A DNA stretch of 64,000 bases, from contig NC_043004.1 of NCBI RefSeq assembly GCF_006345805.1, positions 52,266,001 to 52,330,000 of the forward strand, in the 5' to 3' direction. The notes beneath the pieces were generated by a model. It did not search any database, was not told the origin of the DNA, and saw only the letters and a list, made by a program, of their open reading frames with translations. The DNA is from Octopus sinensis (lineage: Eukaryota). Shown piece by piece: positions 19,560 to 42,054 of this stretch. Position numbers and translations under genes: made by a program. The number at the start of each line of letters is the position of its first letter. Position 1 is the stretch's first letter.

Positions 19560-22500
19560 CAGAGAGCTAAGATAGATAGGAAACATTTAACCATGGCATG
19601 AAAATAGGATAAGAATCGTGGTGGGGAGGAAATATCTGAATTATTTAATGTTGTTGTGATAATGGATTATCAAACCTGGGAAAGATACGTATGACTTAAC
19701 GATGTTGTGAATGGAATTAAGAAATTGGGAAAAATCAGTACACTTTGACCCTACCGTGAAATCGAAACCGGTAACGTTCTGTTCTAATTGCTACAAGTCG
19801 ACAGTAAGGGAGTAAGTTGAAAAGAGGAGTGCGTCAAGAGTGCTGGATTGGAAGGGAAAGGAAACAAGACAAGACAGCAGTAACAGAGACCATAGTAGTA
19901 GTAGTAGTAGTAGCAGTAATAGTTGTTTTGGTGGTGGTGGTGGTAGTGGTGGTGGTAATAGTAGCAGCAACAGTAAATAAAAACTTAGAAATGAGACAGC
20001 GGATCTGTGAGTGACAGGAAAATCTCTGAGAGTAACTTTATTTCAATAATTCGAAAAATCTCTCTTTAGATACACTATGTATGTATAGCTGTAGGATAGA
20101 TTCAGATGCTAGCACAGTATTCAAATTGAAGTCTTACTTGTTTTCTATAGATTGTCATAAATTGAGAGAAGTTGAAGTATATTTTGGCCTTACAGAGAAC
20201 GCCTACTCGAGGGGGTTGCATTTCTAGTTTTGTTAAGGATCCTTTCTGCCAAGGAAACTCTACGGTGACACTGAGATCCCGCTTTTAGATTGAATGTGTG
20301 CTTTCTTCGGAAGACTTTTCATATTTAAAGAGGGTTCAAGGGTGACAATGTTTTATTAACTTGTGAATTGGTTGTAATTTTATTTTTCTGTTTAGGAAAA
20401 GATTTTCGTGAGCAAAATGGAGAATGACTTCAGGGTTTCTTAATGATTTCAGAAACGATAGCTATCATGACATGCATAAGTTGCTTGTGGATGACATATG
20501 AGTGTGGAAGGTTAACCAACAATGAAAGGTTGTGATACAAAGAGAAAAATGGACGATGATGAACACAGTAGAAAACAGGACATTGGTAAATAAGATGGAG
20601 AATGTCGGCTACAAAATCGAAGTTTTAGTTACATCAAGCTTTAGTGAGTGTGGTTCCATTAGCAATCAACGATGCTATGATCTGACTAAACACCACTTTT
20701 TCATAAGAGGCGTCAAGGGTGATAATGTTTCATTAGCTTGGGAAGTGGTTGTAATTTTCTTGTGTTATTGAAGAAAAGATTTTCGTGTGCAAAATGGACG
20801 GTGTCTTCGGTGTTTGTTAAAGGCTTCAGAAATGATAGCTACTAAAGCGGCGAGGTGGCAGAAACGTTAGCACGCCGGGCGAAATGCTTAGCGGTATTTT
20901 TTCTGCCGTTACGTTCTGAGTTCAAATTCCGCCGAGGTCGACTTTGCCTTTCATCCTTTCGGGGTCGATTAAATAAGTACCAGTTACGCACTTCGGTCGA
21001 TATAATCGACTTAATCCGTTTGTCTGTCCTTGTTTGTCCCTTCTGTGTTTAGCCCCTTGTGTGTAGTAAAGAAATAGGTATTTCGTCTACCGCTACGTTC
21101 TAAGTTCAAATTCCGCCGAGGTCAACTTTGCCTTTCATCCTTTCGGGGTCGATTAAATAAGTACCAGCTACGCACTGAGTCAATATAATCGACTTAATCC
21201 CTTTGTCTGTCCTTGTTTGACCTCTCTGTGTTTAGCCCCTTGTGAGTAATAAAGAAATAGAGAAATAGACATTCCGTCTGCCGTAACGTTCTGAGTTCAA
21301 ATTCTGACGAGGTTGACTTTGCCTTTCATCCTTTCGAGGTCGATAAATTAAGTACCACTTACGCACTGGGGTCGATGTAATCGACATAATACCTTTGCCT
21401 GTCCTTGTTTGTTCCCTCTGTGTTTAGCCCCTTGTGGGCAATTAAGAAATAAGGAATGGTAGCTACTATAACATATATAAGGTCGCTTATGGATGACATT
21501 TGAATGTGGAAGGTTAGCCAGGAATGAAAAATGGTGCTATAAGTATAAAAGTAGACGATGATGAAGATAGCGGAAAATATGTCGCTGATAAATAAGATGA
21601 AGAATGTGGGCTACAGAATCGAAGTCTTGGGGTAAACCAAGATAAAGAGTATGGATACATCCTCAATCAACGGTGCTATGATCTGACTAAACGCCACCTA
21701 TTCAAGAAACGAAAGACTAATAAAGCCTATATGCAAGTAGCTTTCTGCTGGCAAAGTTGCGTGTCAGATGGAGTTAAAACTTTTAGATGTGTCGTGGCAA
21801 CGAAATTGATTTAAGGCAAATTCCTCTAGGGTGTGAACTACTTCTGAGCGACTTTGGGGAATAATTTGGTAGCAGATCTAGCTTTACGAAAAGTAATACA
21901 AGAGATGATTAAGAAAGGAAAGAGAGTTTCACAGTGGTGGCTAATTGCTTGTTAATTGCCATCTTCCTTGCGTTTGAGATAATGGAGATGAATATTTGGC
22001 AGTGTCGGTGGAATTATCGCTGCTTGGGAATTGAACATCAGGTAGCATGTTTCCAAAAGTCTCAATATATTTTGAGAGAAAGAAAGAGAGAGAAGGGGAG
22101 AGAAATAGGAGAGAGAGAGAAAACTTTGGGAAAGAGGGAGAGAGAAAGAGTGAAAGAGAGAGAGAGAGAGCGAAGAGAGAAAGGATTGTAGACGGACAGG
22201 CACATAATGACAGATATAGATGCACAGTGACAGAGGTACAGAGAGAAAGTGAAAGAGAAGAAAGTGGACGAGAAAGAGAGAGAGACAAAGAAAGACAGAG
22301 AAAAGAGAGAGAAATAGAGTGAGAAAAGAGAGAGATAGGGATTGAAGAATTTGATTATAGTGGCCAGCGCTGAAACACGTTGTTCGGGTGTAAAGGCGAG
22401 GGCAATATTAGGACCGATGGTCGTGTTAGCTTTTAGTGATAGAAGCTATATTCCCATGCATGTATTGATGGTGTGGAGCTTTATCGAATAAAAGGAGATA

Positions 22501-29170: not shown

Positions 29171-29364
29171 ACGAAGATTTCTGTGAGTGTGTATGTGCTT
29201 GTGTGAGAAAAATAACGTCGTACTACAAAGCGCATGTGATTACACGATTTAGGTGAATAAGTGTGTTCAGTAATTCGGATGAAGAGAAGGAACACTTCTA
29301 AGCGCAATCAGCTATAAAAACATTGGTACAAAAGAGAGTATGACGACTAGAAAGCAACTGCACT

Positions 29365-29963
29365 AAGGCGGCGAGCTGGCAGACACGTTAGCAGGCCGGG
29401 CGAAATGCTTAGCAGAGATTCGTCTGCCGCTACGTTCTGAGTTCAAGTTCCGTCGAGACCGACTTTGCTTTTCATCCTTTCGGGGACGATTAAATAAGTA
29501 CCAGTTACGCAATGGGGTCGATATAATCGACTTAATCCGTTTGTCTGTCCTTGTTCGTCCCCTCTGTGTTTAGCCCCATGTGGGCAATAAAGAAATAGGT
29601 ATTTCGTCAGCCGCTACGTTCTGATTCCAAATTCCGCCGAGGTCGACTTTGCATTTCATCCTTTCGGGGTCGATTAAAAAAGTACTAGTTACGCACTGGG
29701 GTCAATATAATCGACTTAATCCGTTTGTCTGTCCTTGTTCGTCCCCTCTGTTTAGCCCCTTGTGGGTAGTAAATAAATAGGTACTTCGTCTGTCTTTACG
29801 TTCTGAGTTCAAATTCCGCAGAGGTCGACTTTGCCTTTCATCCTTTCGGGGTCGATTAAATAAGTACCAGTTACGCACTGGGGTAGGTCTAATCGACTTC
29901 ATCCCTTTGTCTGTCCTTGTTTGTCCCATCTATGTTTAGCCCCTTGTGGGGAATAAAGAAATA
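29365..29963 (+). mobile_element. SINE family B trimer
   Basis: Units 29365-29598, 29599-29780, 29781-29963; TSD agaaagcaactgcact / agaaaggaactgcact. Confidence 0.92.
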
Positions 29964-30236
29964 AGAAAGGAACTGCACTTCAAGTATTTGACACAAATTT
30001 ATCCTCCCCAAGAACTAGGGGTACTTCAATCCCAGTGAGTCACATACTAGCATCCTAACAAATGCTGCTGCCCCGGATCAGTTTAGACATGGAAACAATA
30101 TTAGCTAAGTGTTTGTTCTACACTCCTCAAAACACGGACATTCCTGTACCGGGGCCCCACTATCTGATGCAATTTAAAGTCATACTCATGTTCATATATA
30201 TGCACTTGCGTATTTGTGGATGAGTGTATATATAAC

Positions 30237-32272: not shown

Positions 32273-34029
32273 TGTAATATATATGGGTATATATGCAAGT
32301 ATATACATGTATGTGTATATGCGTATGTTTGTTAGTGTAATTAGTCACATTTTATTAATTTGTTGTACACATATAAATATAGTTACGTGGAGTTTGATTA
32401 TATAATTCAATTTATTCACACAAATAACATTATATATCTTAATTTGTTTGATATTTAGTGAAGGAAGAATATGGCGTCAAAATGACGCTTATAAATGAAA
32501 GTAAAATGATTAACAGAGCGTGCCTCAGATTATTAAGAGAAATATGAGCACCGGCACCACGACGACAACGACAACCACCACTACTATAAACATGCTAGAT
32601 TGATAGCCATAATTAGGTGAATGTATCAAAACTAATAACGCCAAAATTAATAAACGATTAATTTTAATTATGTTATGAAATGTGACGATTTTGCAAACAT
32701 ATAAGTGACATGAGATTTATATACACGTAAGCAAATCAAGTCAATGGATCTCCGTCGATTTTGAGGGCGAGTGTTCAAATGGTTTCATCAGCCGGAATTT
32801 ATAGTCAACGAATTACGGTCTAAGAATTGGTCAATTCCCTAGTCACTAGTTCACTCAGTGCCATACGTAAGTATTTTTAGCGTCAGCTTGTATGATGTCT
32901 GCGATTTGTCTCTCGATCAGATCAACTAGTGATGGGAAAATAATATCATAATGGCTGTCACTTGCCTTAATTGGGTAAACGGCATTCTTGTGGGTTTTTT
33001 TCTTTTTTTCTCTTTTGAAATGTAAAAATTTAAATTTTGAATCTCAAAATTCACCAACAAAGTGAACATTTTACATCAAACTACACCAACGTAAGCTGAG
33101 CGAGCTGGCTTATTTTGGAAAGAATCCAACAAAAAATCGAACACCAAAAATATTAAACAACAAATTTGAAAGAAAACTTACGAGCCACGAACAAGCGTCG
33201 TTTTTCCAAACAAAGAATAACAGCAATAACAACAGTAGCAACAACAACAACAACTCCAACAAGAACAGCAACAGCAGCAATAATGCCCTGATGCAAGGTT
33301 CTTAACCATAGAAACCATTTTGCACAGAGAGAAAAGGAGTGAGAGAGAGAGGAGAGAGAGAAATGGAATAGCACATAGACACACAGACACAAGCATATAC
33401 ATGTATACTACACACACTAACATGCACACACGCACACGTACACGCGTGCGCACGCACCCACACATTGTTTTTTGTATAAATACGTACACATCACAAATTT
33501 GTACACTACGTATAAGCTTTACGTTCGAAAAGCTTATACTTTTCTTATACCTTAAGTTTTCCTACTGCTGCAACTGTCTTCAACCTCACCAAGTATTGAC
33601 AAGTGAGGACCCTCTGCAGTTTATCTACATATTTTTACGTATCGTATTATTTCTTAACGTAAACATATACTCGGAAATGTAATTCGGATATCTTTATGAA
33701 ATGCACTCCGAATTTGATTTGGCTTCGTTAATTTATTTCCACATATTAGTAGATTCTAAGTAAGAAAAAGTACATACAAGATTATATCCTAATGCTCATA
33801 AAACTGTATATAAAGATATGAACTCTTCATGGAAATAATTCTACAGAATCTTCTGGAAATTTTATCGACTCTAACAAAATAAACTGGAAAATATTGGAAG
33901 AATATATGAAGATTAATATAAAGAAGATCTATTTTCTTCGGCAATAATAACAGTAAAGGTAACAAAAGCAAACAAACAACAATAATGTTAATGGCGATGA
34001 TTATGACGATGATTTCTCATAATTTAAAA

Positions 34030-34058
34030 ATAATAATAATGATAACAATAATAATAAT

Positions 34059-34096
<38 letters not shown>

Positions 34097-34106
34097 TAAT
34101 TAATGA

Positions 34107-34161
<55 letters not shown>

Positions 34162-34171
34162 AATAATAATG

Positions 34172-34203
<32 letters not shown>

Positions 34204-34220
34204 TATGAATAATAATGATA

Positions 34221-34251
<31 letters not shown>

Positions 34252-34262
34252 TATTATTATTA

Positions 34263-34319
<57 letters not shown>

Positions 34320-34320
34320 C
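34030..34320. repeat. Alternating (AAT)n/(ATT)n microsatellite blocks
   Basis: Read directly; self-complementary arrangement. Confidence 0.9.
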
Positions 34321-34439
34321 TAATATAGGCACAAGGGGAGGTGGATAATCGATTGCGTTAACGTCAGTGATTAATGTTACTAATGTTATCTCCCTTGGAA
34401 GGATGAAAGGCCAAGTTGACCAGGAATAGTAATAAAGAT

Positions 34440-34660
34440 AGAAGCGGAGAATTAAAGGCGATATTAAAACTTTGGGTAAAAGTCTGAGTCGTATAGAAGA
34501 ATGGTCCAAAATGCAATGGTAAAATGCTAAAAAATGTGCAAGGGCATATCTTGACGCAAAACACTGAATAGAAAAGAAAAGGTTCAAAACTGTTATCGAA
34601 TCCCTAAAACAACTTGTGTGGGCAAAAAGATTAAAGGTGCAACGCTACACTGATGGCATA
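34440..34660 (+). mobile_element. R4/Dong-like ORF N-terminal fragment
   Basis: KRRIKGDIKTLGKSLSRIEEW..KRFKTVIESLKQLVWAKRLKVQRYTD. Confidence 0.55.
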
Positions 34661-34914
34661 GAGAAAAAGGGGAAGTCAGAAACAAAAGAGGAAAATAATC
34701 GATTAGGGAGTCACATTGGATTGCAAATCCCACTGTATCATATATTACTTGTTCTCGGTGACCCGTTCTAGTTCATTCTCGTACCATTTCCGCGCTCTGA
34801 TCCGTGCTACCGGACGTAGAACGGAACAGAGCGCGTTCTAGAACGGGCAGAAAGAAATTAAGTAGTGGTGGAGCCAGAAGCTTCTACATGGACAGTATAT
34901 ACTTTGGAGTCGAA

Positions 34915-36532
34915 ATACTGATGTAGATCATGCAACAACGCATCAGTAACTGAGAAGTACATGACTGAAAGCAGCAACTGAAGTTTTCATATTAGCGGCA
35001 GAAAATCAGTTTGCACACAAAAATGCCAGTCTAACGTTCTTCAAAACGGTTCTGATCCTAAATGCAGATTCTGTGACACAATTGACGAAACAGTAGACCA
35101 TCTCGTCGCGGGATATCCTATGCTGACACCAAACGAATATAAAACTCTCCACGAGTTATTATCATTATTGCTAATATTATTATTATTGTCATTATTACTC
35201 TGGTATTTTCCAGTCAATAAGATCATTACTAGTTGAGTACTGGGGTCGATGTAATCGACTTGACCCCTTCCCCGAAATTTGAAACTAATATTTCTCTCTA
35301 GGAGGGTGAGCTGGTAGAATCTTTAGCAGGCTCAGCAAGATGCTTAGCGGCATTTGTCCGCCTTTACATTCTGAGTTCAAATTCCGCCGAGGTCGACGAT
35401 GCCTTTTATCCTTTCCAGGACAATAGATTAAGACCAGTTGAGAAGTGGGGTGGCCAAGTAATCAACTTAGCCACTTCCTCGAAATTTCTCACCTTGTGCC
35501 AAGATTTGAAAGCAATGTTTCTTTCAGCTCTTTATCTTCTAATTTCAAATTTAGAAGTGCTTTGTACTTTATCATAACAGGGTTGATAAGTTAAACAAAT
35601 TGGGAAATGTTAAGTTTGATATAAGTGACCGTTCTCACGATCCTCGCAAATTTCTAGCGTTGTTTTTCTCAGGATATGATCAGACATAAAGCAAACACAC
35701 CAGCAGAAATATCTTGATCCCCGTGAGCGATACTACGACCCCGACAACTTGGTGGTAGTCTCGTGTAGTCTGAGAAAGCATGTTCTGCAATTTCTTGCTG
35801 AACGACCCGCACAAGTAATTTATTTATACTGATCAAATGGCTGTGGTGTACATTAACTAACCCTTTCCATTAAATCTACTTGGTCGATTGTGCTGGTATA
35901 CAGTGTACCAAGCGCCAGTTGTTGAAATGTTCACCGAGCAACGTAAGATGAAGTGCTTCGCTCAAGGGCAAAACGCCACATCCAGTCCAGAAAGTGAACT
36001 ACGATATCGTGATTGTGAATGCAGCACCATAAATTTTGCGTCATGCACTCTCAAACTTCTGCAACATAAACAAAGGCGATCCAGGCTAATCGACCAGACA
36101 TCATTATTAAAAGAAAAGGAAGAAAATATTTGTAAACCAGTAGATGTAAGTGTTCTCACTGATAAAAATATATCTGTCAGGGAATTTGACATACAAATTG
36201 AAATTGAAATACAAAAGATGTGGCATCTTAAAACGAGAATTGTTCATGTTATTGTAGGTTCCCTAGATATGATAAGAAAGGGATGTCAGAAACATCTAAA
36301 TAAGATCCCCAGAAGACCATGTCTCAGACAAATTCAAATGATTGTACTGACAAGTACTGCCCACATCCTCAGAGAAGTCCTATCCATTTTAATGTCTACG
36401 TTATATTACATGAAAATATTTCGCTACTTCACCTTGTCATGCTATAACATCTCTTATGCTTCACTCGCCCCAAAACACTGGTTATGTTTCGGCAAGTGAC
36501 TGTAGGAAACATGCAGATTAAAAGTAAAAGAG
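34915..36532 (+). mobile_element. Old R4/Dong LINE 3' region, split by an ~865-bp insertion
   Basis: Left part: LKAATEVFILAAENQ..DPKCRFCDTIDETVDHLV..LLWYFPVN (to about 35219). Right part: IQANRPDIIIK..EIQKMWHLKT..VIVGSL..TAHILREVLS, then 3' UTR and (TAA)n. Confidence 0.85.
35217..36082 (+). repeat. Left arm of near-perfect long inverted repeat
   Basis: Reverse complement of 39673-40537; I saw only one 1-nt indel and one C/T substitution. Confidence 0.97.
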
Positions 36533-36535
36533 TAA

Positions 36536-36579
<44 letters not shown>

Positions 36580-36580
<1 letters not shown>

Positions 36581-37715
36581 TTTTTTTTCTTCTTTCAAAT
36601 TTTCTTCCATTTCTTGCCGAGTGTCTTCCCGACTCCTAGGGCAAAGAAACTCATAGTGTTTATTGGTAGGCCATTAAACCAAACTCAGTAGTTCGTTCAT
36701 TTTTTTTTTTAAAGTTAAATTAAAATGCATGAGCAGCAACAGTTCTCACATCGACAATGCTCTTCTCAATACGTGTGATGTACCAGTTAAGACAATCTTT
36801 TGCACTTCTTGCAGGGATGGTAAGCCAGGGATCATTCTCATATAATTTTCGGTTCCCTTCTTGATCATTCCTAGTGCTCCTACGATCACTGGTATTGTAA
36901 CCGCCTTGAGATGCCACATTTTCTCAATTTCAATGAGTAGGTCTTTATATTTTCTGAGCTTGTCAAACTCTTTCGCTGAGATATTATGATCACAGGGGAT
37001 GCTCATGTCGATCAATAAGCAAACTTTATTGTTTTGGTCTTTCACAAAAATATCTGGTTTATTGGCCTTGATAGTTCGGTCTGTATGTACTGGAAAGTCC
37101 CACAGAATGGTTACATTTTCTCCTTCAGTTACAGCCTCAGGGTGGTGGTTATACCACTTGTCGGCAGTTTTGATATTGTAATGCCGACTTATTAGCCAGT
37201 GGAGATATTGGCCAACTCTGTCATGTCTTAATTTATACTCCACTGGTGCTAAGACTTTACATCCAGAGATTAGGTGGTCCACTGTTTCAATCATGTCGTT
37301 GCAGAATCGGCATTTTGGGTCTGCTCCATTTTTCATCACATTGGCCTGGTAGTTCCGGGTTGATAGGCTTTGGTCTTGAGCAGCGAGGATGAAACCTTCG
37401 CTCTCTGCTTTTAGCCCTGAGCTCCGCAGCCACTGATGGGTTTGCTTCTGGTCAACATCAGCTTGTTTGCTGCGGGTCACATATTTGCCGTGCAGAGGTT
37501 TCTCCTCCCACCTATCAGCCAATTGCTCGTGCGCTTTTTTCATTGCCCTCATTTTCACCTTCTTTGCAACAATAGTTGCCGTACTTCCCTCGGGTTGTTC
37601 AGTTTGGGTATCCTGCACGAGATCAATAGCAAATTTTTTGCTTTCCTTGATGATAGAATGAAGCTTCTTTCGTCTCTCGTGATTTTCCACGAGCTTTAGC
37701 ATCCAGTCATTCGAT
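36580..37715 (-). mobile_element. Young 5'-truncated R4/Dong-clade LINE with uninterrupted C-terminal frame (CCHC plus RLE) and 3' UTR
   Basis: Open frame 36746-37714: LHGKY..LKAESEGFILAAQDQ..CRFCNDMIETVDHLISGC..RHDRV..ILWDFPVHTDRTIKANKPDI..IDMSIP..KYKDL..VIVGALG. A-rich/(TAA)n tail. No RT domain and no true start codon. Confidence 0.95.
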
Positions 37716-39055
37716 ATTATAGGCACAAGGCTTGAAAATTCAGAGACAGGCGCCTGTCGATTGCAAGGACCCAGTAGTCAACTGCTACTTATTTTATCAA
37801 ATCCGAAAACATAAAAGGCAACTCGACTACGGTGACATTTGAAATCAGAACGTGAAGTCAGAAAGGAAAATGTCCACGCTACCAAAAACAAAAACAAAAA
37901 GAGACAAAAAAAAAGGAAAGAAATACTAATTGTTTTTTGCGAGGTAACGATTCTACCAATCGCCGACTCTATATTAGTAGTAATAATAATAATAAAAATG
38001 ATAATAATAATGATAATGATGATGATAATAATAATAATAAGAAGAAGAAGAAGAAGAATGAGATGGTAATGAAGAAATGGAACGAGGTAGGAGAAAAGCA
38101 ATTAGAACAAAAACATAAGCTGGGAAATCTTGCAAAAGCATTTGTCTAAAAAAATGTCTAAGAATATGAAGAAGCAGGAAATTTGTGAGAAGCACAGAGA
38201 ATTGTTGATGTAGATTAAAACGATAATTATATGAAATAACAATAAAACTATATGATTATATCTAGAAAATGCTAATATTCACGTACAAGATACGAAACAA
38301 GCGATAATTTGTGTATTAATTGTCTGCTAACTTCACAGCTTAATTGAAAAAGACCTCTAGATAAGTTTTGTTATGATTGTTTTATAGGTTTTTCTATTGC
38401 TTACTGGAAATATTTTGCTTTCTTCAGATTGTTTTGGTTTGAATCGTGCTTAGAATAACTGCTGTCTGTTGACCAGTCACACACATTTCTCAGTCTTTAC
38501 TACTACGTCTCTCTCTCTCTCCCTTTGTCTATCTCACACACTCTCTCATCCCTGTCGCATACTTCCCATCATAGGCAGGCGCGCACGCACACGAATATAT
38601 TCATGAATATATATAAATGAAAACCTATATTAAACTAATCAATTGCAACATTCCACTACAGTTTTAATATTAATTGAGATATTTTCGGAGCTTCAGCAAT
38701 AACCACAGCAAAGTCAACAACCATAACAACAGCAGCAGCAATAACAAATGTTACAAGAGCAATAATAATCCTTTTTACTAGAAGCACATGGCATAAACTT
38801 TGGCAAGAGGGTTCAAGGCAGTTACATCGTATCCAGAATAGCGGGGGAAACGAGCTAACATTCAATGCTATAGTCAGGTCGTACATCGATAGACACGATT
38901 GGTTTCCTGACGTATTACTTACGTAGCAAGAACTCTTCAATAAAAAGTCAAAATTCTCTAATGCACGGTATTTGAACTAGAATATACAGGAGAGTTTAAT
39001 CACCATCCAAGTATCGAGGACATATTTAACTGCTGGCATTTTATCTTATCTTGTT

Positions 39056-39326
39056 GAGGCACATGGCCTAGTAGTTAGAGAAGCGGACTCACGGTTGAGG
39101 GATCGCGGGTTCGGATCTCAGACCGGGTGATGTGTGTGTTTATGAGCGAAGCATCTAAGCTCCACGCCGCTCCGGCAAAAGGTAATGGCGAACTTCTGCT
39201 GACTCTTTCGCCACAACTTTCTCTCATTCTTTCCTCCTGCATCTTGCAGGTCACCTGCGTCTCGGAGGAACCTATACGCCAAGGAAACCGGCCCTTTTGA
39301 GCCAGGCGTGGCTCGAGAAGGAACAA
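39056..39326 (+). mobile_element. SINE family C with a third 3' tail
   Basis: TGGCCTAGTAG A box, GGGTTCGGATCTC B box, shared core; tail ends GCTCGAGAAGGAACAA; TSD-like tatcttatct on both sides. Confidence 0.85.
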
Positions 39327-39672
39327 TTATATCTTATCTCGAAACGGAAATTAGCCACTCTGTACCCAAAGGATTTTTAGAAGCTGTTTCTAGTCTCTGG
39401 CTTCAAGGAACTCCAGAAGAGGTTGGATAGACTTTTGCCGTTGATATCCAGATTCATCATCACTCCGCCCTAGCATTAATTCATTACATAACGCGAGAGA
39501 GCATATCCTTGTAGTAGCATTGTCCAGGTGGTGGAGTGTTATAAACTATCATGAACATTTTTGATGCAAAAATGGAAAAGCAATACACTTCATTCTAGAC
39601 GTAAGTCATTATTGATGATCGTTTGGAAACCTGAGCTACAGAGAGGCCTATGGCAAGAAGAATATTCTCACC

Positions 39673-40537
39673 GGATCGCCTTTGTTTATGTTGCAGAAGT
39701 TTGAGAGTGCATGACGCAAAATTTATGGTGCTGCATTCACAATCACGATATCGTAGTTCACTTTCTGGACTGGATGTGGCGTTTTGCCCTTGAGCGAAGC
39801 ACTTCATCTTACGTTGCTCGGTGAACATTTCAACAACTGGCGCTTGGTACACTGTATACCAACACAATCGACCAAGTAGATTTAATGGAAAGGGTTAGTT
39901 AATGTACACCACAGCCATTTGATCAGTATAAATAAATTACTTGTGCGGGTCGTTCAGCAAGAAATTGCAGAACATGCTTTCTCAGACTACACGAGACTAC
40001 CACCAAGTTGTCGGGGTCGTAGTATCGCTCACGGGGATCAAGATATTTCTGCTGGTGTGTTTGCTTTATGTCTGATCATATCCTGAGAAAAACAACGCTA
40101 GAAATTTGCGAGGATCGTGAGAACGGTCACTTATATCAAACTTAACATTTCCCAATTTGTTTAACTTATCACCCTGTTATGATAAAGTACAAAGCACTTC
40201 TAAATTTGAAATTAGAAGATAAAGAGCTGAAAGAAACATTGCTTTCAAATCTTGGCACAAGGTGAGAAATTTCGAGGAAGTGGCTAAGTTGATTACTTGG
40301 CCACCCCACTTCTCAACTGGTCTTAATCTATTGTCCTGGAAAGGATAAAAGGCATCGTCGACCTCGGCGGAATTTGAACTCAGAATGTAAAGGCGGACAA
40401 ATGCCGCTAAGCATCTTGCTGAGCCTGCTAAAGATTCTACCAGCTCACCCTCCTAGAGAGAAATATTAGTTTCAAATTTCGGGGAAGGGGTCAAGTCGAT
40501 TACATCGACCCCAGTACTCAACTAGTAATGATCTTAT
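39673..40537 (-). repeat. Right arm (probable donor) of long inverted repeat
   Basis: Reverse complement of 35217-36082; the outer end continues without a break into a SINE B copy (40538-40660). Confidence 0.97.
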
Positions 40538-40749
40538 CGATTTCGAAAGATTGAATGACAAAGTAAACCTCGGCGGAATACGAACTTAGAACGTAAAGAC
40601 GGACGAAATGTCGCTAAGCATCTTGTGCTGCGCGCTAACGATTCTGCTAGCTCTCCGTCCTAGATCCGAAAGAAATAATGGTTACAAACTTTGTCGCAAG
40701 GGAAAATTGTGGGGAGGGGATGAGTCGATTTCATCGACCCCAGTGTTTA

Positions 40750-41046
40750 AGATGAAGGGCAAAGTCGACCTGCGCAGAATTTGAACTCAGAACGTAGCGG
40801 CAGACGAAATACTTATTTCTTTACTACCCACAAGGGCCTAAACACAGAGAGTACAAACAAGGACAGGCAAACGGATTAAGTCGATTGTATCGACCCCAGT
40901 GCGTAACTGGTACTTAATTTATAGACCGTGAAAAGATGAAAGGCAAAGTCGACCTCGGCGGAATTTGAAATCAGAACGTTGCGGCAGACGAAATACTGCT
41001 AAGCATTTCGCCCGGCGTGTTAACGTTTCTGCCACCTCGCCGCCTT
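40750..41046 (-). mobile_element. SINE family B, one unit plus a partial second unit
   Basis: Reverse complement of the family B head and body. Confidence 0.88.
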
Positions 41047-41146
41047 AGAGCCAAAAGAAGCAAAGCAAGATGTTTTGTGCGATAATCAACGGTGTCTGGC
41101 AAATAATGACGTTTTGTGTGACGACGCTTACATCGAAATACTCAAG

Positions 41147-41187
<41 letters not shown>

Positions 41188-42054
41188 ACACACGTACACA
41201 GAGTCACTCTACAAACGCACGCCCCCACTTCACCTCCACCCACAGTAGCAAACAAGTTCGATTCATCAAAGAATAATGTAACATAATTCCGCTGGAGATC
41301 ACGCATAGCTTCCCCCACGCCCCTTTTCCTTTCCCTCTCAGCTACATATATCACTCTCTCTCTCTCTTTTGTCTTTCATATTCCATCTTTTTTCTTCCAC
41401 CCACCGCATTTCCTTGTCACCCTCCTCCTCTCGTAACCAATAATCCATCTTCAGCGCTATATATCAAGGTATATCAATGCACTTTAAAACAAAACAGATA
41501 TTGCAGTATTGCGACACACTTTCAATGGTTCATTTCTACAACTTCCTCACATCTCTCTCCCATTCTCTTAATCTCTTTCTCTCCCTCTCTTTATAACTCT
41601 CTCTCTCGCTCTCTCTCTCACCCGAATTTCTTTGTGTTGGATGACGTAGTACCGACGCTTGTCGTCGTGGCTGTAGTCTTCTCTTCATTTCCTAATTCAT
41701 CGTCTGACTGTCTTCTGTCTGTTTGACGTTCTTTACTTGCCGCCATTCCTTCACTCATCATTCAAGTTTCCTTTATTCTGACATATTTCTTTTACCTATT
41801 TCTTTCAGTCATTGTCTCATTTATTACTCTATTTTTCGCTGTTTCTTTTCCCAGCTTTCATCTATTTCTATGCCGCTCTACACGTAGACTTGCCATCCAT
41901 ATAATACGTGTCGCCCATTCATTATTCCCCTTTCCCAATTTCCTTCATTAAACCCCTTTCCCCGCCATCTTTTACTTTATATGTTTGGAAGAAACTCACA
42001 AAATAACCACAAATTGTCAATATATTGTGTTTTATTCTAGTTGCTGATTTTGGG

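What the first reader, a model, noticed from the sequence alone, without database searches (positions are those of the whole stretch)
35217..40537. Recent ~865-bp inverted templated insertion that splits an old Dong element at microhomologies
Seen: 35217-36082 is the reverse complement of 39673-40537, with only two differences noticed, across a 3.6-kb spacer. The arms are a patchwork of old SINE fragments, not a TIR family. The left arm lies inside a Dong coding motif: ..LLWYFPVN(a) | arm | (cgatcc)AGGCTAATCGACCA = IQANRP, against the intact ILWDFPVHTDRTIKANKP at about 37110-37055, so only about 10 nt are missing. The right arm's outer end runs on unbroken into a SINE. The junctions share short homologies (tcaata vs tcgata; cgatcc). 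Inference: the right arm is the donor, copied in inverted orientation by microhomology-mediated template switching (FoSTeS/MMBIR or polymerase-theta-type repair). It may be polymorphic.
Basis: partly seen in the sequence, partly recalled or inferred. Interest (0 to 1): 0.8.

Follow-up and report, generated by a model that had tools for sequence, protein, structure and literature searches.

The report
Old backward DNA copy, arms homogenised
An 866-base piece of repeat-derived DNA sits copied backwards 3.6 kb from its source, inside a dead retrotransposon; it is likely a scar of a DNA copying or repair slip, a common mutation type, and it is likely older than it looks because the two copies probably keep overwriting each other.

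Summary
35217-36082 is the reverse complement of 39673-40537 with 2 differences, and the genome search shows only these two full-length copies. The right arm is the donor: a SINE runs through its outer end in 38 of 38 other best loci. The left copy splits an old LINE, with 9-11 nt lost and a 6-nt inner microhomology; the outer 'microhomology' is mostly donor sequence. Short-read contigs of run X18 cross both left junctions, so it is no assembly artefact. This is the known 'inverted duplication' class (<1 kb, within 5 kb; PMC4617611), likely made by a template switch. 'Recent' is doubtful. Runs X3 and X4 (another organism label, 2.2-2.7% diverged in the flank) carry the same outer junction, yet differ from both reference arms at 8 or more sites. 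Without exchange, 10-23 arm differences are expected, not 2 (P<=0.002). Arm-to-arm gene conversion is the likely reason. No empty allele was seen. The scan noted similar inverted patches before on other DNA. Ordinary event, mildly interesting history.

The parts
35217..36082 (-). Left arm: inserted inverted copy (866 nt) of 39673-40537
   Evidence: both junctions crossed by X18 contigs, outer junction by X3 and X4 contigs
39673..40537 (+). Right arm: donor (865 nt), patchwork of old SINE pieces and a second repeat family
   Evidence: SINE continuous through 40537 in 13 window hits and 38 of 38 other best genomic loci; family pieces
34880..35154 (+). Old RLE-type (Dong-like) LINE, upstream piece with CCHC finger, degraded
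   Evidence: translation; in relatives it aligns up to about 152 nt before the junction
35155..35197 (+). Older lesion: about 115 nt of LINE replaced by about 43 nt of TTA-rich simple sequence
   Evidence: same letters in X18, X3 and X4 contigs
35198..35217 (+). LINE stub before the insertion point (switch point 1); exact overlap with donor 1 nt, at most 3
36077..36082 (+). CGATCC microhomology shared by the donor inner end and the LINE (return point)
   Evidence: 14 of 29 relatives end in CGATCC, 18 in GATCC
36083..36520 (+). LINE 3' part resuming after 9-11 lost nt, followed by TAA repeats
   Evidence: 78-82% identical to 39 other genomic loci; translation
36083..39672 (.). 3590-nt spacer: LINE 3' end, a second younger LINE fragment on the minus strand (36749-37720), SINE pieces, microsatellites
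40538..40660 (+). SINE continuing beyond the donor's outer end (switch point 2)

Best explanation
This is a real 866-nt inverted local duplication inserted into an old LINE, likely made by one switch-and-return of DNA synthesis and likely kept near-identical to its donor since then by gene conversion. Shown: the arms, the donor side, the split LINE, both left junctions in short-read contigs, and the outer junction in two diverged runs. Inferred: synthesis stalled or broke at 35217, re-primed 5.3 kb away at 40537 on the opposite strand with little homology, and copied 865 nt backwards. It then annealed by CGATCC 9-11 nt downstream of where it left (order 1-4-3-2, MMBIR/FoSTeS or synthesis-dependent end joining). 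Inferred: the event predates the roughly 1.5-2.5% divergence between the reference and runs X3/X4, and later arm-to-arm conversion spread lineage-specific letters to both arms. It has no evident function.
For: Anatomy. There is no target-site duplication at exact ends, no poly-A tail and no terminal repeat. X18 crosses both left junctions (35156-35246, 0 differences; 36053-36190, 1 difference), and its arm contig ends exactly at 36082 at 1.67x flank depth. X3 (35059-35254) and X4 (35078-35255) cross the outer junction with 0 differences, while their flank differs at 11/491 and 14/521; arm depth is 1.6-2.1x flank. X3 and X4 differ from the reference arms at 12/726 and 8/669 sites, none of them a left-right difference; 10-23 arm differences expected, 2 seen, P<=0.002. 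At 35971 the repeat family reads C in 23 of 27 covering copies, as X3/X4 do, but both reference arms read A. X18 and X2 paths differ from the reference arm at only 2 and 3 sites. Class match: PMC4617611 passage; bioRxiv 10.1101/2024.04.18.590093 passage.
Against: In X3 and X4 no listed contig crosses the inner left junction. Their arm contigs run on past 36082 into other sequence (letters not shown) and do not branch at 35246, so a second arm there rests on depth, which the tool says is no copy number. The depth model cannot tell shared from arm-specific alleles in X4. X3 has 0 differences over 324 nt around the outer junction (P 0.009 at the local rate), which hints at a young shared haplotype. 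Only one site (35971) polarises clearly as reference-derived; 35864 is weak (13 C, 8 T), and 35442, 35758 and 35823 are derived in X3/X4. The outer junction has almost no exact homology. The donor's inner end is not spanned by any known repeat.
Confidence: 0.6

Rival explanations
1. Same template-switch origin but truly young; organism B got the left arm through gene flow or a shared haplotype, so arm identity in the reference is real youth.
For: 0 differences over 35059-35382 in X3 and over 35078-35255 in X4 (P 0.009 for X3); X4 keeps one reference-like path at 35759-35853.
Against: Needs recombination within about 330 nt of the junction in both runs. X4's main path has the B letters in 5 of 5 separate clusters shared with X3 (1/32 if the arms differed), so conversion is still likely needed in B.
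Confidence: 0.15
2. Staggered-break inversion: the spacer was inverted with the arm duplicated at both ends by end joining, and later recombination between the arms flipped the spacer back.
For: Gives exactly the same four junctions (inference); mechanism described in PMC3355041 (passages); exchange between arms is implied anyway.
Against: Needs two events. The reference spacer is in the ancestral orientation (LINE continuous). An 866-nt stagger in a 4.5-kb event is less usual than the inverted-duplication class.
Confidence: 0.12
3. Organism B holds a plain inversion with a single arm that shares the outer junction; the duplication is a later second step in the reference lineage.
For: In X3 and X4 both arm ends are unbranched: the outer end joins the LINE stub, and the inner end runs 357 and 341 nt into other sequence.
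Against: Arm depth is 1.6-2.1x the flanks, like X18 (1.67x), which has both junctions. The missing links adjoin high-copy repeats, which graph cleaning tends to drop (recalled). A second event would have to land within 11 nt of the first, and the arms would still need homogenising.
Confidence: 0.07
4. The duplication is real and old, but the arm identity is an artefact of consensus polishing.
For: All 4 laid runs match the left arm at both arm differences, so those two may be consensus errors or private changes; X18 depth 1.67x also fits a few differences.
Against: X18 and X2 paths differ from each other at 1 site and from the reference at 2-3 sites; diverged arms would give mosaics differing at about 5 (inference).
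Confidence: 0.04
5. TIR/foldback transposon, retro-copied insertion, or assembly artefact.
For: Long near-perfect inverted arms.
Against: Two full-length copies only; no TSD, poly-A tail or internal terminal repeat; SINE seamless through the right outer end; junctions in short-read contigs.
Confidence: 0.02

Closest known systems
Inverted duplication (inv-dup) structural variants of the 1000 Genomes Project (PMC4617611; bioRxiv 10.1101/2024.04.18.590093; passages read)
   Same: Copy under 1 kb inserted inverted within 5 kb of its source, short microhomology, no retrotransposition marks.
   Different: Those are human polymorphisms (median 284 bp); this one appears shared across diverged haplotypes of an invertebrate and homogenised.
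Four-point template switch, type 1-4-3-2 (PMC5453318; passages read)
   Same: Same order of switch points, giving an inverted repeat with a short 1-to-4 loss.
   Different: That model covers short events inside one fork; here 865 nt are copied from 5.3 kb away.
Palindrome arms kept alike by gene conversion, such as Y-chromosome P8 with a 3.4-kb spacer (PMC6790999; passages read)
   Same: Inverted arms, similar spacer, identity higher than age would allow.
   Different: Arms here are about 45 times shorter, gene-free, and in repeat-derived DNA; conversion is inferred, not shown by phased alleles.
Staggered-break inversions with inverted duplications in Drosophila (PMC3355041; passages read)
   Same: Inverted copies of once single-copy DNA flanking a segment.
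   Different: There the segment is inverted; here it is in ancestral orientation in the reference.

Membership tests
Inverted duplication (inv-dup) SV class | Copy under 1 kb, inverted, within 5 kb of the source | tested here: met
   866 nt, 3590-nt gap
Inverted duplication (inv-dup) SV class | Intervening DNA not inverted; insertion site otherwise continuous, with or without a small deletion | tested here: met
   LINE resumes on the same strand, 9-11 nt lost
Inverted duplication (inv-dup) SV class | Junction microhomology of 1-15 bp | tested here: met
   6 nt inner (inferred from 14 of 29 relatives), 1-3 nt outer
Inverted duplication (inv-dup) SV class | An allele without the copy is observed | tested here: inconclusive
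   None in 4 runs or the assembly; contigs cannot show absence; X2 lists no junction contig
TIR / foldback transposon | Termini recur genome-wide as pairs | tested here: not met
   2 full-length matches among 40 scored candidates
TIR / foldback transposon | Target-site duplication | tested here: not met
   None at exact ends; at most 2 nt with 4-nt slack
Retro-copied (TPRT) insertion | TSD and poly-A or simple-repeat tail | tested here: not met
   the 5-nt repeat found with slack is family sequence of the LINE
Gene-converting palindrome | Arms more alike within a lineage than orthologous arms between lineages | tested here: inconclusive
   Met in the reference (2 vs 10-23 expected; site 35971); the two arms of organism B were not seen apart
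Staggered-break inversion | Segment between the duplicates is inverted | tested here: not met
   Reference only; orientation in other individuals is not testable with short contigs
Dong/R4 LINE (host element) | Single-ORF RT followed by CCHC finger and restriction-like endonuclease | tested here: met
   Neighbouring fragment: zf-RVT below Pfam cutoff; 62 longer RT-bearing relatives at 35-67%; motifs read by eye
Dong/R4 LINE (host element) | Placement in the R4/Dong clade by RT phylogeny | not tested
Polymerase-theta templated insertion | Short patch from the immediate flanks, POLQ-dependent | not testable with these tools
   Length and distance exceed the usual range (recalled)

The most novel reading that the evidence does not exclude
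A gene-free, sub-kilobase inverted duplication has persisted across two diverged lineages as a miniature palindrome whose arms evolve in concert, and whose 3.6-kb spacer may flip repeatedly. If general, arm identity would systematically underdate such events in these genomes.
Probability: 0.45. Interest if true: 0.42.

Novelty: new member of a known kind. Interest (0 to 1): 0.27.

Why it matters
Inverted duplications of this size and spacing are the commonest inversion-like variant in humans, so the event itself is ordinary and has no visible function. The useful point is the dating warning: 99.8% arm identity suggested a fresh mutation, but the junction is shared with haplotypes about 1.5-2.5% apart. 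With phased long reads the locus would give a direct measure of conversion between short inverted arms in an invertebrate. My one search for octopus plus 'inverted duplication' listed 2 unrelated papers, which is thin evidence of absence from print.

Tried and rejected
Empty allele: a joint skipping 35219 to 36078 appears in all 4 runs, but with only 21-22 letters on its short side; 2 LINE copies elsewhere in the genome carry that reading, so I rejected it as evidence. A true empty-allele contig would likely end within the LINE and sit among 1403 unshown loose ends. The left flank occurs once in the assembly, so there is no haplotig. X2 lists no junction contig and its arm contig runs 375 nt past 36082, but its depth varies from 80 to 227 over a stretch that is one contig in X18, so I drew no conclusion. 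Depth modelling in X4 did not separate shared from arm-specific alleles. Repeat continuity at the donor's inner end: no family spans 39673 among 40 scored matches. Gene context: 101 of 393 filtered reading frames from 464 kb were scanned with Pfam; the hits were retroelement or transposase domains, plus one weak zinc finger about 125 kb upstream. Short exons would be missed, so an intronic position and a double-stranded RNA role are untested. Rfam found 0 matches in 34000-41500. The reading frame 35861-36499 that crosses the inner junction has no Pfam match and is judged a chance fusion. No earlier notes exist on this genome. Papers were seen as search listings or keyword passages only; no supplements were opened, and the extended figures of PMC4617611 were seen only as legends.
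Full report
Observation. A self-comparison of the window gives one outstanding inverted pair, 35214-36082 against 40540-39673, at 866/869. The core has 2 differences, an extra T at 35583 and C/T at 35893. The genome (2.72 Gb) returns only these two full-length matches among 40 scored candidates; the rest match SINE or second-family pieces at 64-85%. In 464 kb around the locus it is the only inverted pair at 99% or more among the 60 best of 158 hits, apart from one tandem-array cluster.

Which arm is the donor. A SINE runs through 40537 in 13 window hits and in 38 of 38 other best genomic loci; no hit spans 35217, 36082 or 39673. On the left, an RLE-type LINE is cut. 25 of its 29 closest relatives put 17 nt between the last stub letter and 36083, and 14 of 29 end that stretch in CGATCC, the same six letters that end the arm. 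So 11 nt are lost, or 9 if this copy read AATA. The chance of six or more shared letters at a random join is 0.003. There is no TSD, tail or terminal repeat.

Is it real. I laid 4 of 24 listed runs on 34400-36520. X18 has contigs across both left junctions, and an arm contig that stops exactly at 36082 at 1.67 times flank depth. X18 may or may not be independent of the assembly, but either way the junctions exist in short-read data. All 4 runs match the left arm at both arm differences, so those two are private to the assembled right arm or are errors.

Age. X3 and X4 (organism label B, two studies) differ from the reference at 11/491 and 14/521 flank sites, yet both cross the outer junction with 0 differences. 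Inside the arm they differ at 12/726 and 8/669 sites, where the two reference arms agree. If the copy predates this divergence and the arms evolved apart, 10-23 differences are expected; 2 are seen (P from 0.002 to 2e-8). With 28 family copies as outgroup, 35971 is derived on the reference side (23 C, 4 A) and sits in both arms. Sites 35758, 35823 and 35442 (21 SINE copies) are derived in B, 35864 is weak, and the others are uninformative or uncovered. For scale only, the closest octopus species pair in PMC10700109 split about 2.5 million years ago (passage); I did not establish what organisms A, B and E are.

Against this reading. In X3 and X4 no listed contig crosses the inner left junction, and both arm ends look unbranched. 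A second arm there rests on depth (1.6-2.1 times flank) and on the recalled habit of assemblers to drop links next to high-copy repeats. The depth model is not decisive. X3 is identical to the reference over 324 nt around the outer junction (P 0.009). These points leave room for a young shared haplotype or a single-arm inversion in B. Most of those alternatives still need some homogenising of the arms (inference).

Mechanism. The anatomy is a 1-4-3-2 switch in the terms of PMC5453318 (passages): leave at 35217, copy 40537 back to 39673 on the other strand, return by CGATCC 9-11 nt further on. Replication template switching and synthesis-dependent break repair cannot be told apart here. A staggered-break inversion (PMC3355041, passages) followed by a back-flip gives the same junctions but needs two steps. 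Conversion between inverted arms is documented for large palindromes (PMC6790999, passages), and recurrent flipping between inverted repeats for human inversions (PMC3961182, passages).

Known class. PMC4617611 reports that 54% of sequenced human inversions are inverted duplications, nearly all under 1 kb and within 5 kb of the other copy (passage). A later long-read study finds most with 1-15 bp microhomology (passage). This locus meets those features; an empty allele was not observed. Two earlier notes of this scan describe similar inverted patches in other genomes; I did not check them.

Verdict. A real, ordinary inverted duplication with no sign of function, likely older than its arm identity implies. 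Overall confidence is 0.6 in template-switch origin plus later conversion, and about 0.85 in the inverted-duplication class itself (judgement). Interest 0.27.

Noticed in passing
window 35155-35197: About 115 nt of the LINE replaced by a TTA-rich patch just 20 nt before the insertion point; an older lesion, shared by X18, X3 and X4. Two lesions so close may mark a fragile spot.
   Followed up: partly
window 36749-37720 (-): 324-codon open 3' part of a second RLE-type LINE (CCHC finger and endonuclease motifs), 67% identical to its best RT-bearing relative.
   Followed up: partly
window 35059-35382: No differences between the reference and X3 over 324 nt across the outer junction, against about 1.5% nearby; unexplained.
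   Followed up: partly
window 35854 and 35908: X2 and X18 share two derived letters absent from both reference arms and from X3/X4: variation segregating within the arm.
   Followed up: partly
L063 (about G000:C8:52191500-52194600): Tandem-array cluster with inverted blocks at 95-99.5% identity 159-1051 nt apart; another local foldback-like structure.
   Followed up: no
L078-L079 (about G000:C8:52410500-52416900): About 6.4-kb tandem array ending at an assembly gap.
   Followed up: no
L004 and L005 (G000:C16:22175966 and 22177283): Two SINE matches with equal scores 1317 nt apart, suggesting a recent tandem duplication.
   Followed up: no
L062:288-686 (+): Frame ending in a C2H2-like zinc finger with weak SUZ12/KIN17 Pfam scores below cutoff; possible host exon about 125 kb upstream of the finding.
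   Followed up: no
L068:5004-7406 (-); L073:2988-7788 (-); L079:3-1589 (-): Long open LINE frames with reverse transcriptase (801, 560, 529 aa), likely young elements.
   Followed up: no
window 20841-21456 and 29362-29968: Multimeric SINE arrays, 87% alike, with internal repeats of about 180 nt.
   Followed up: no
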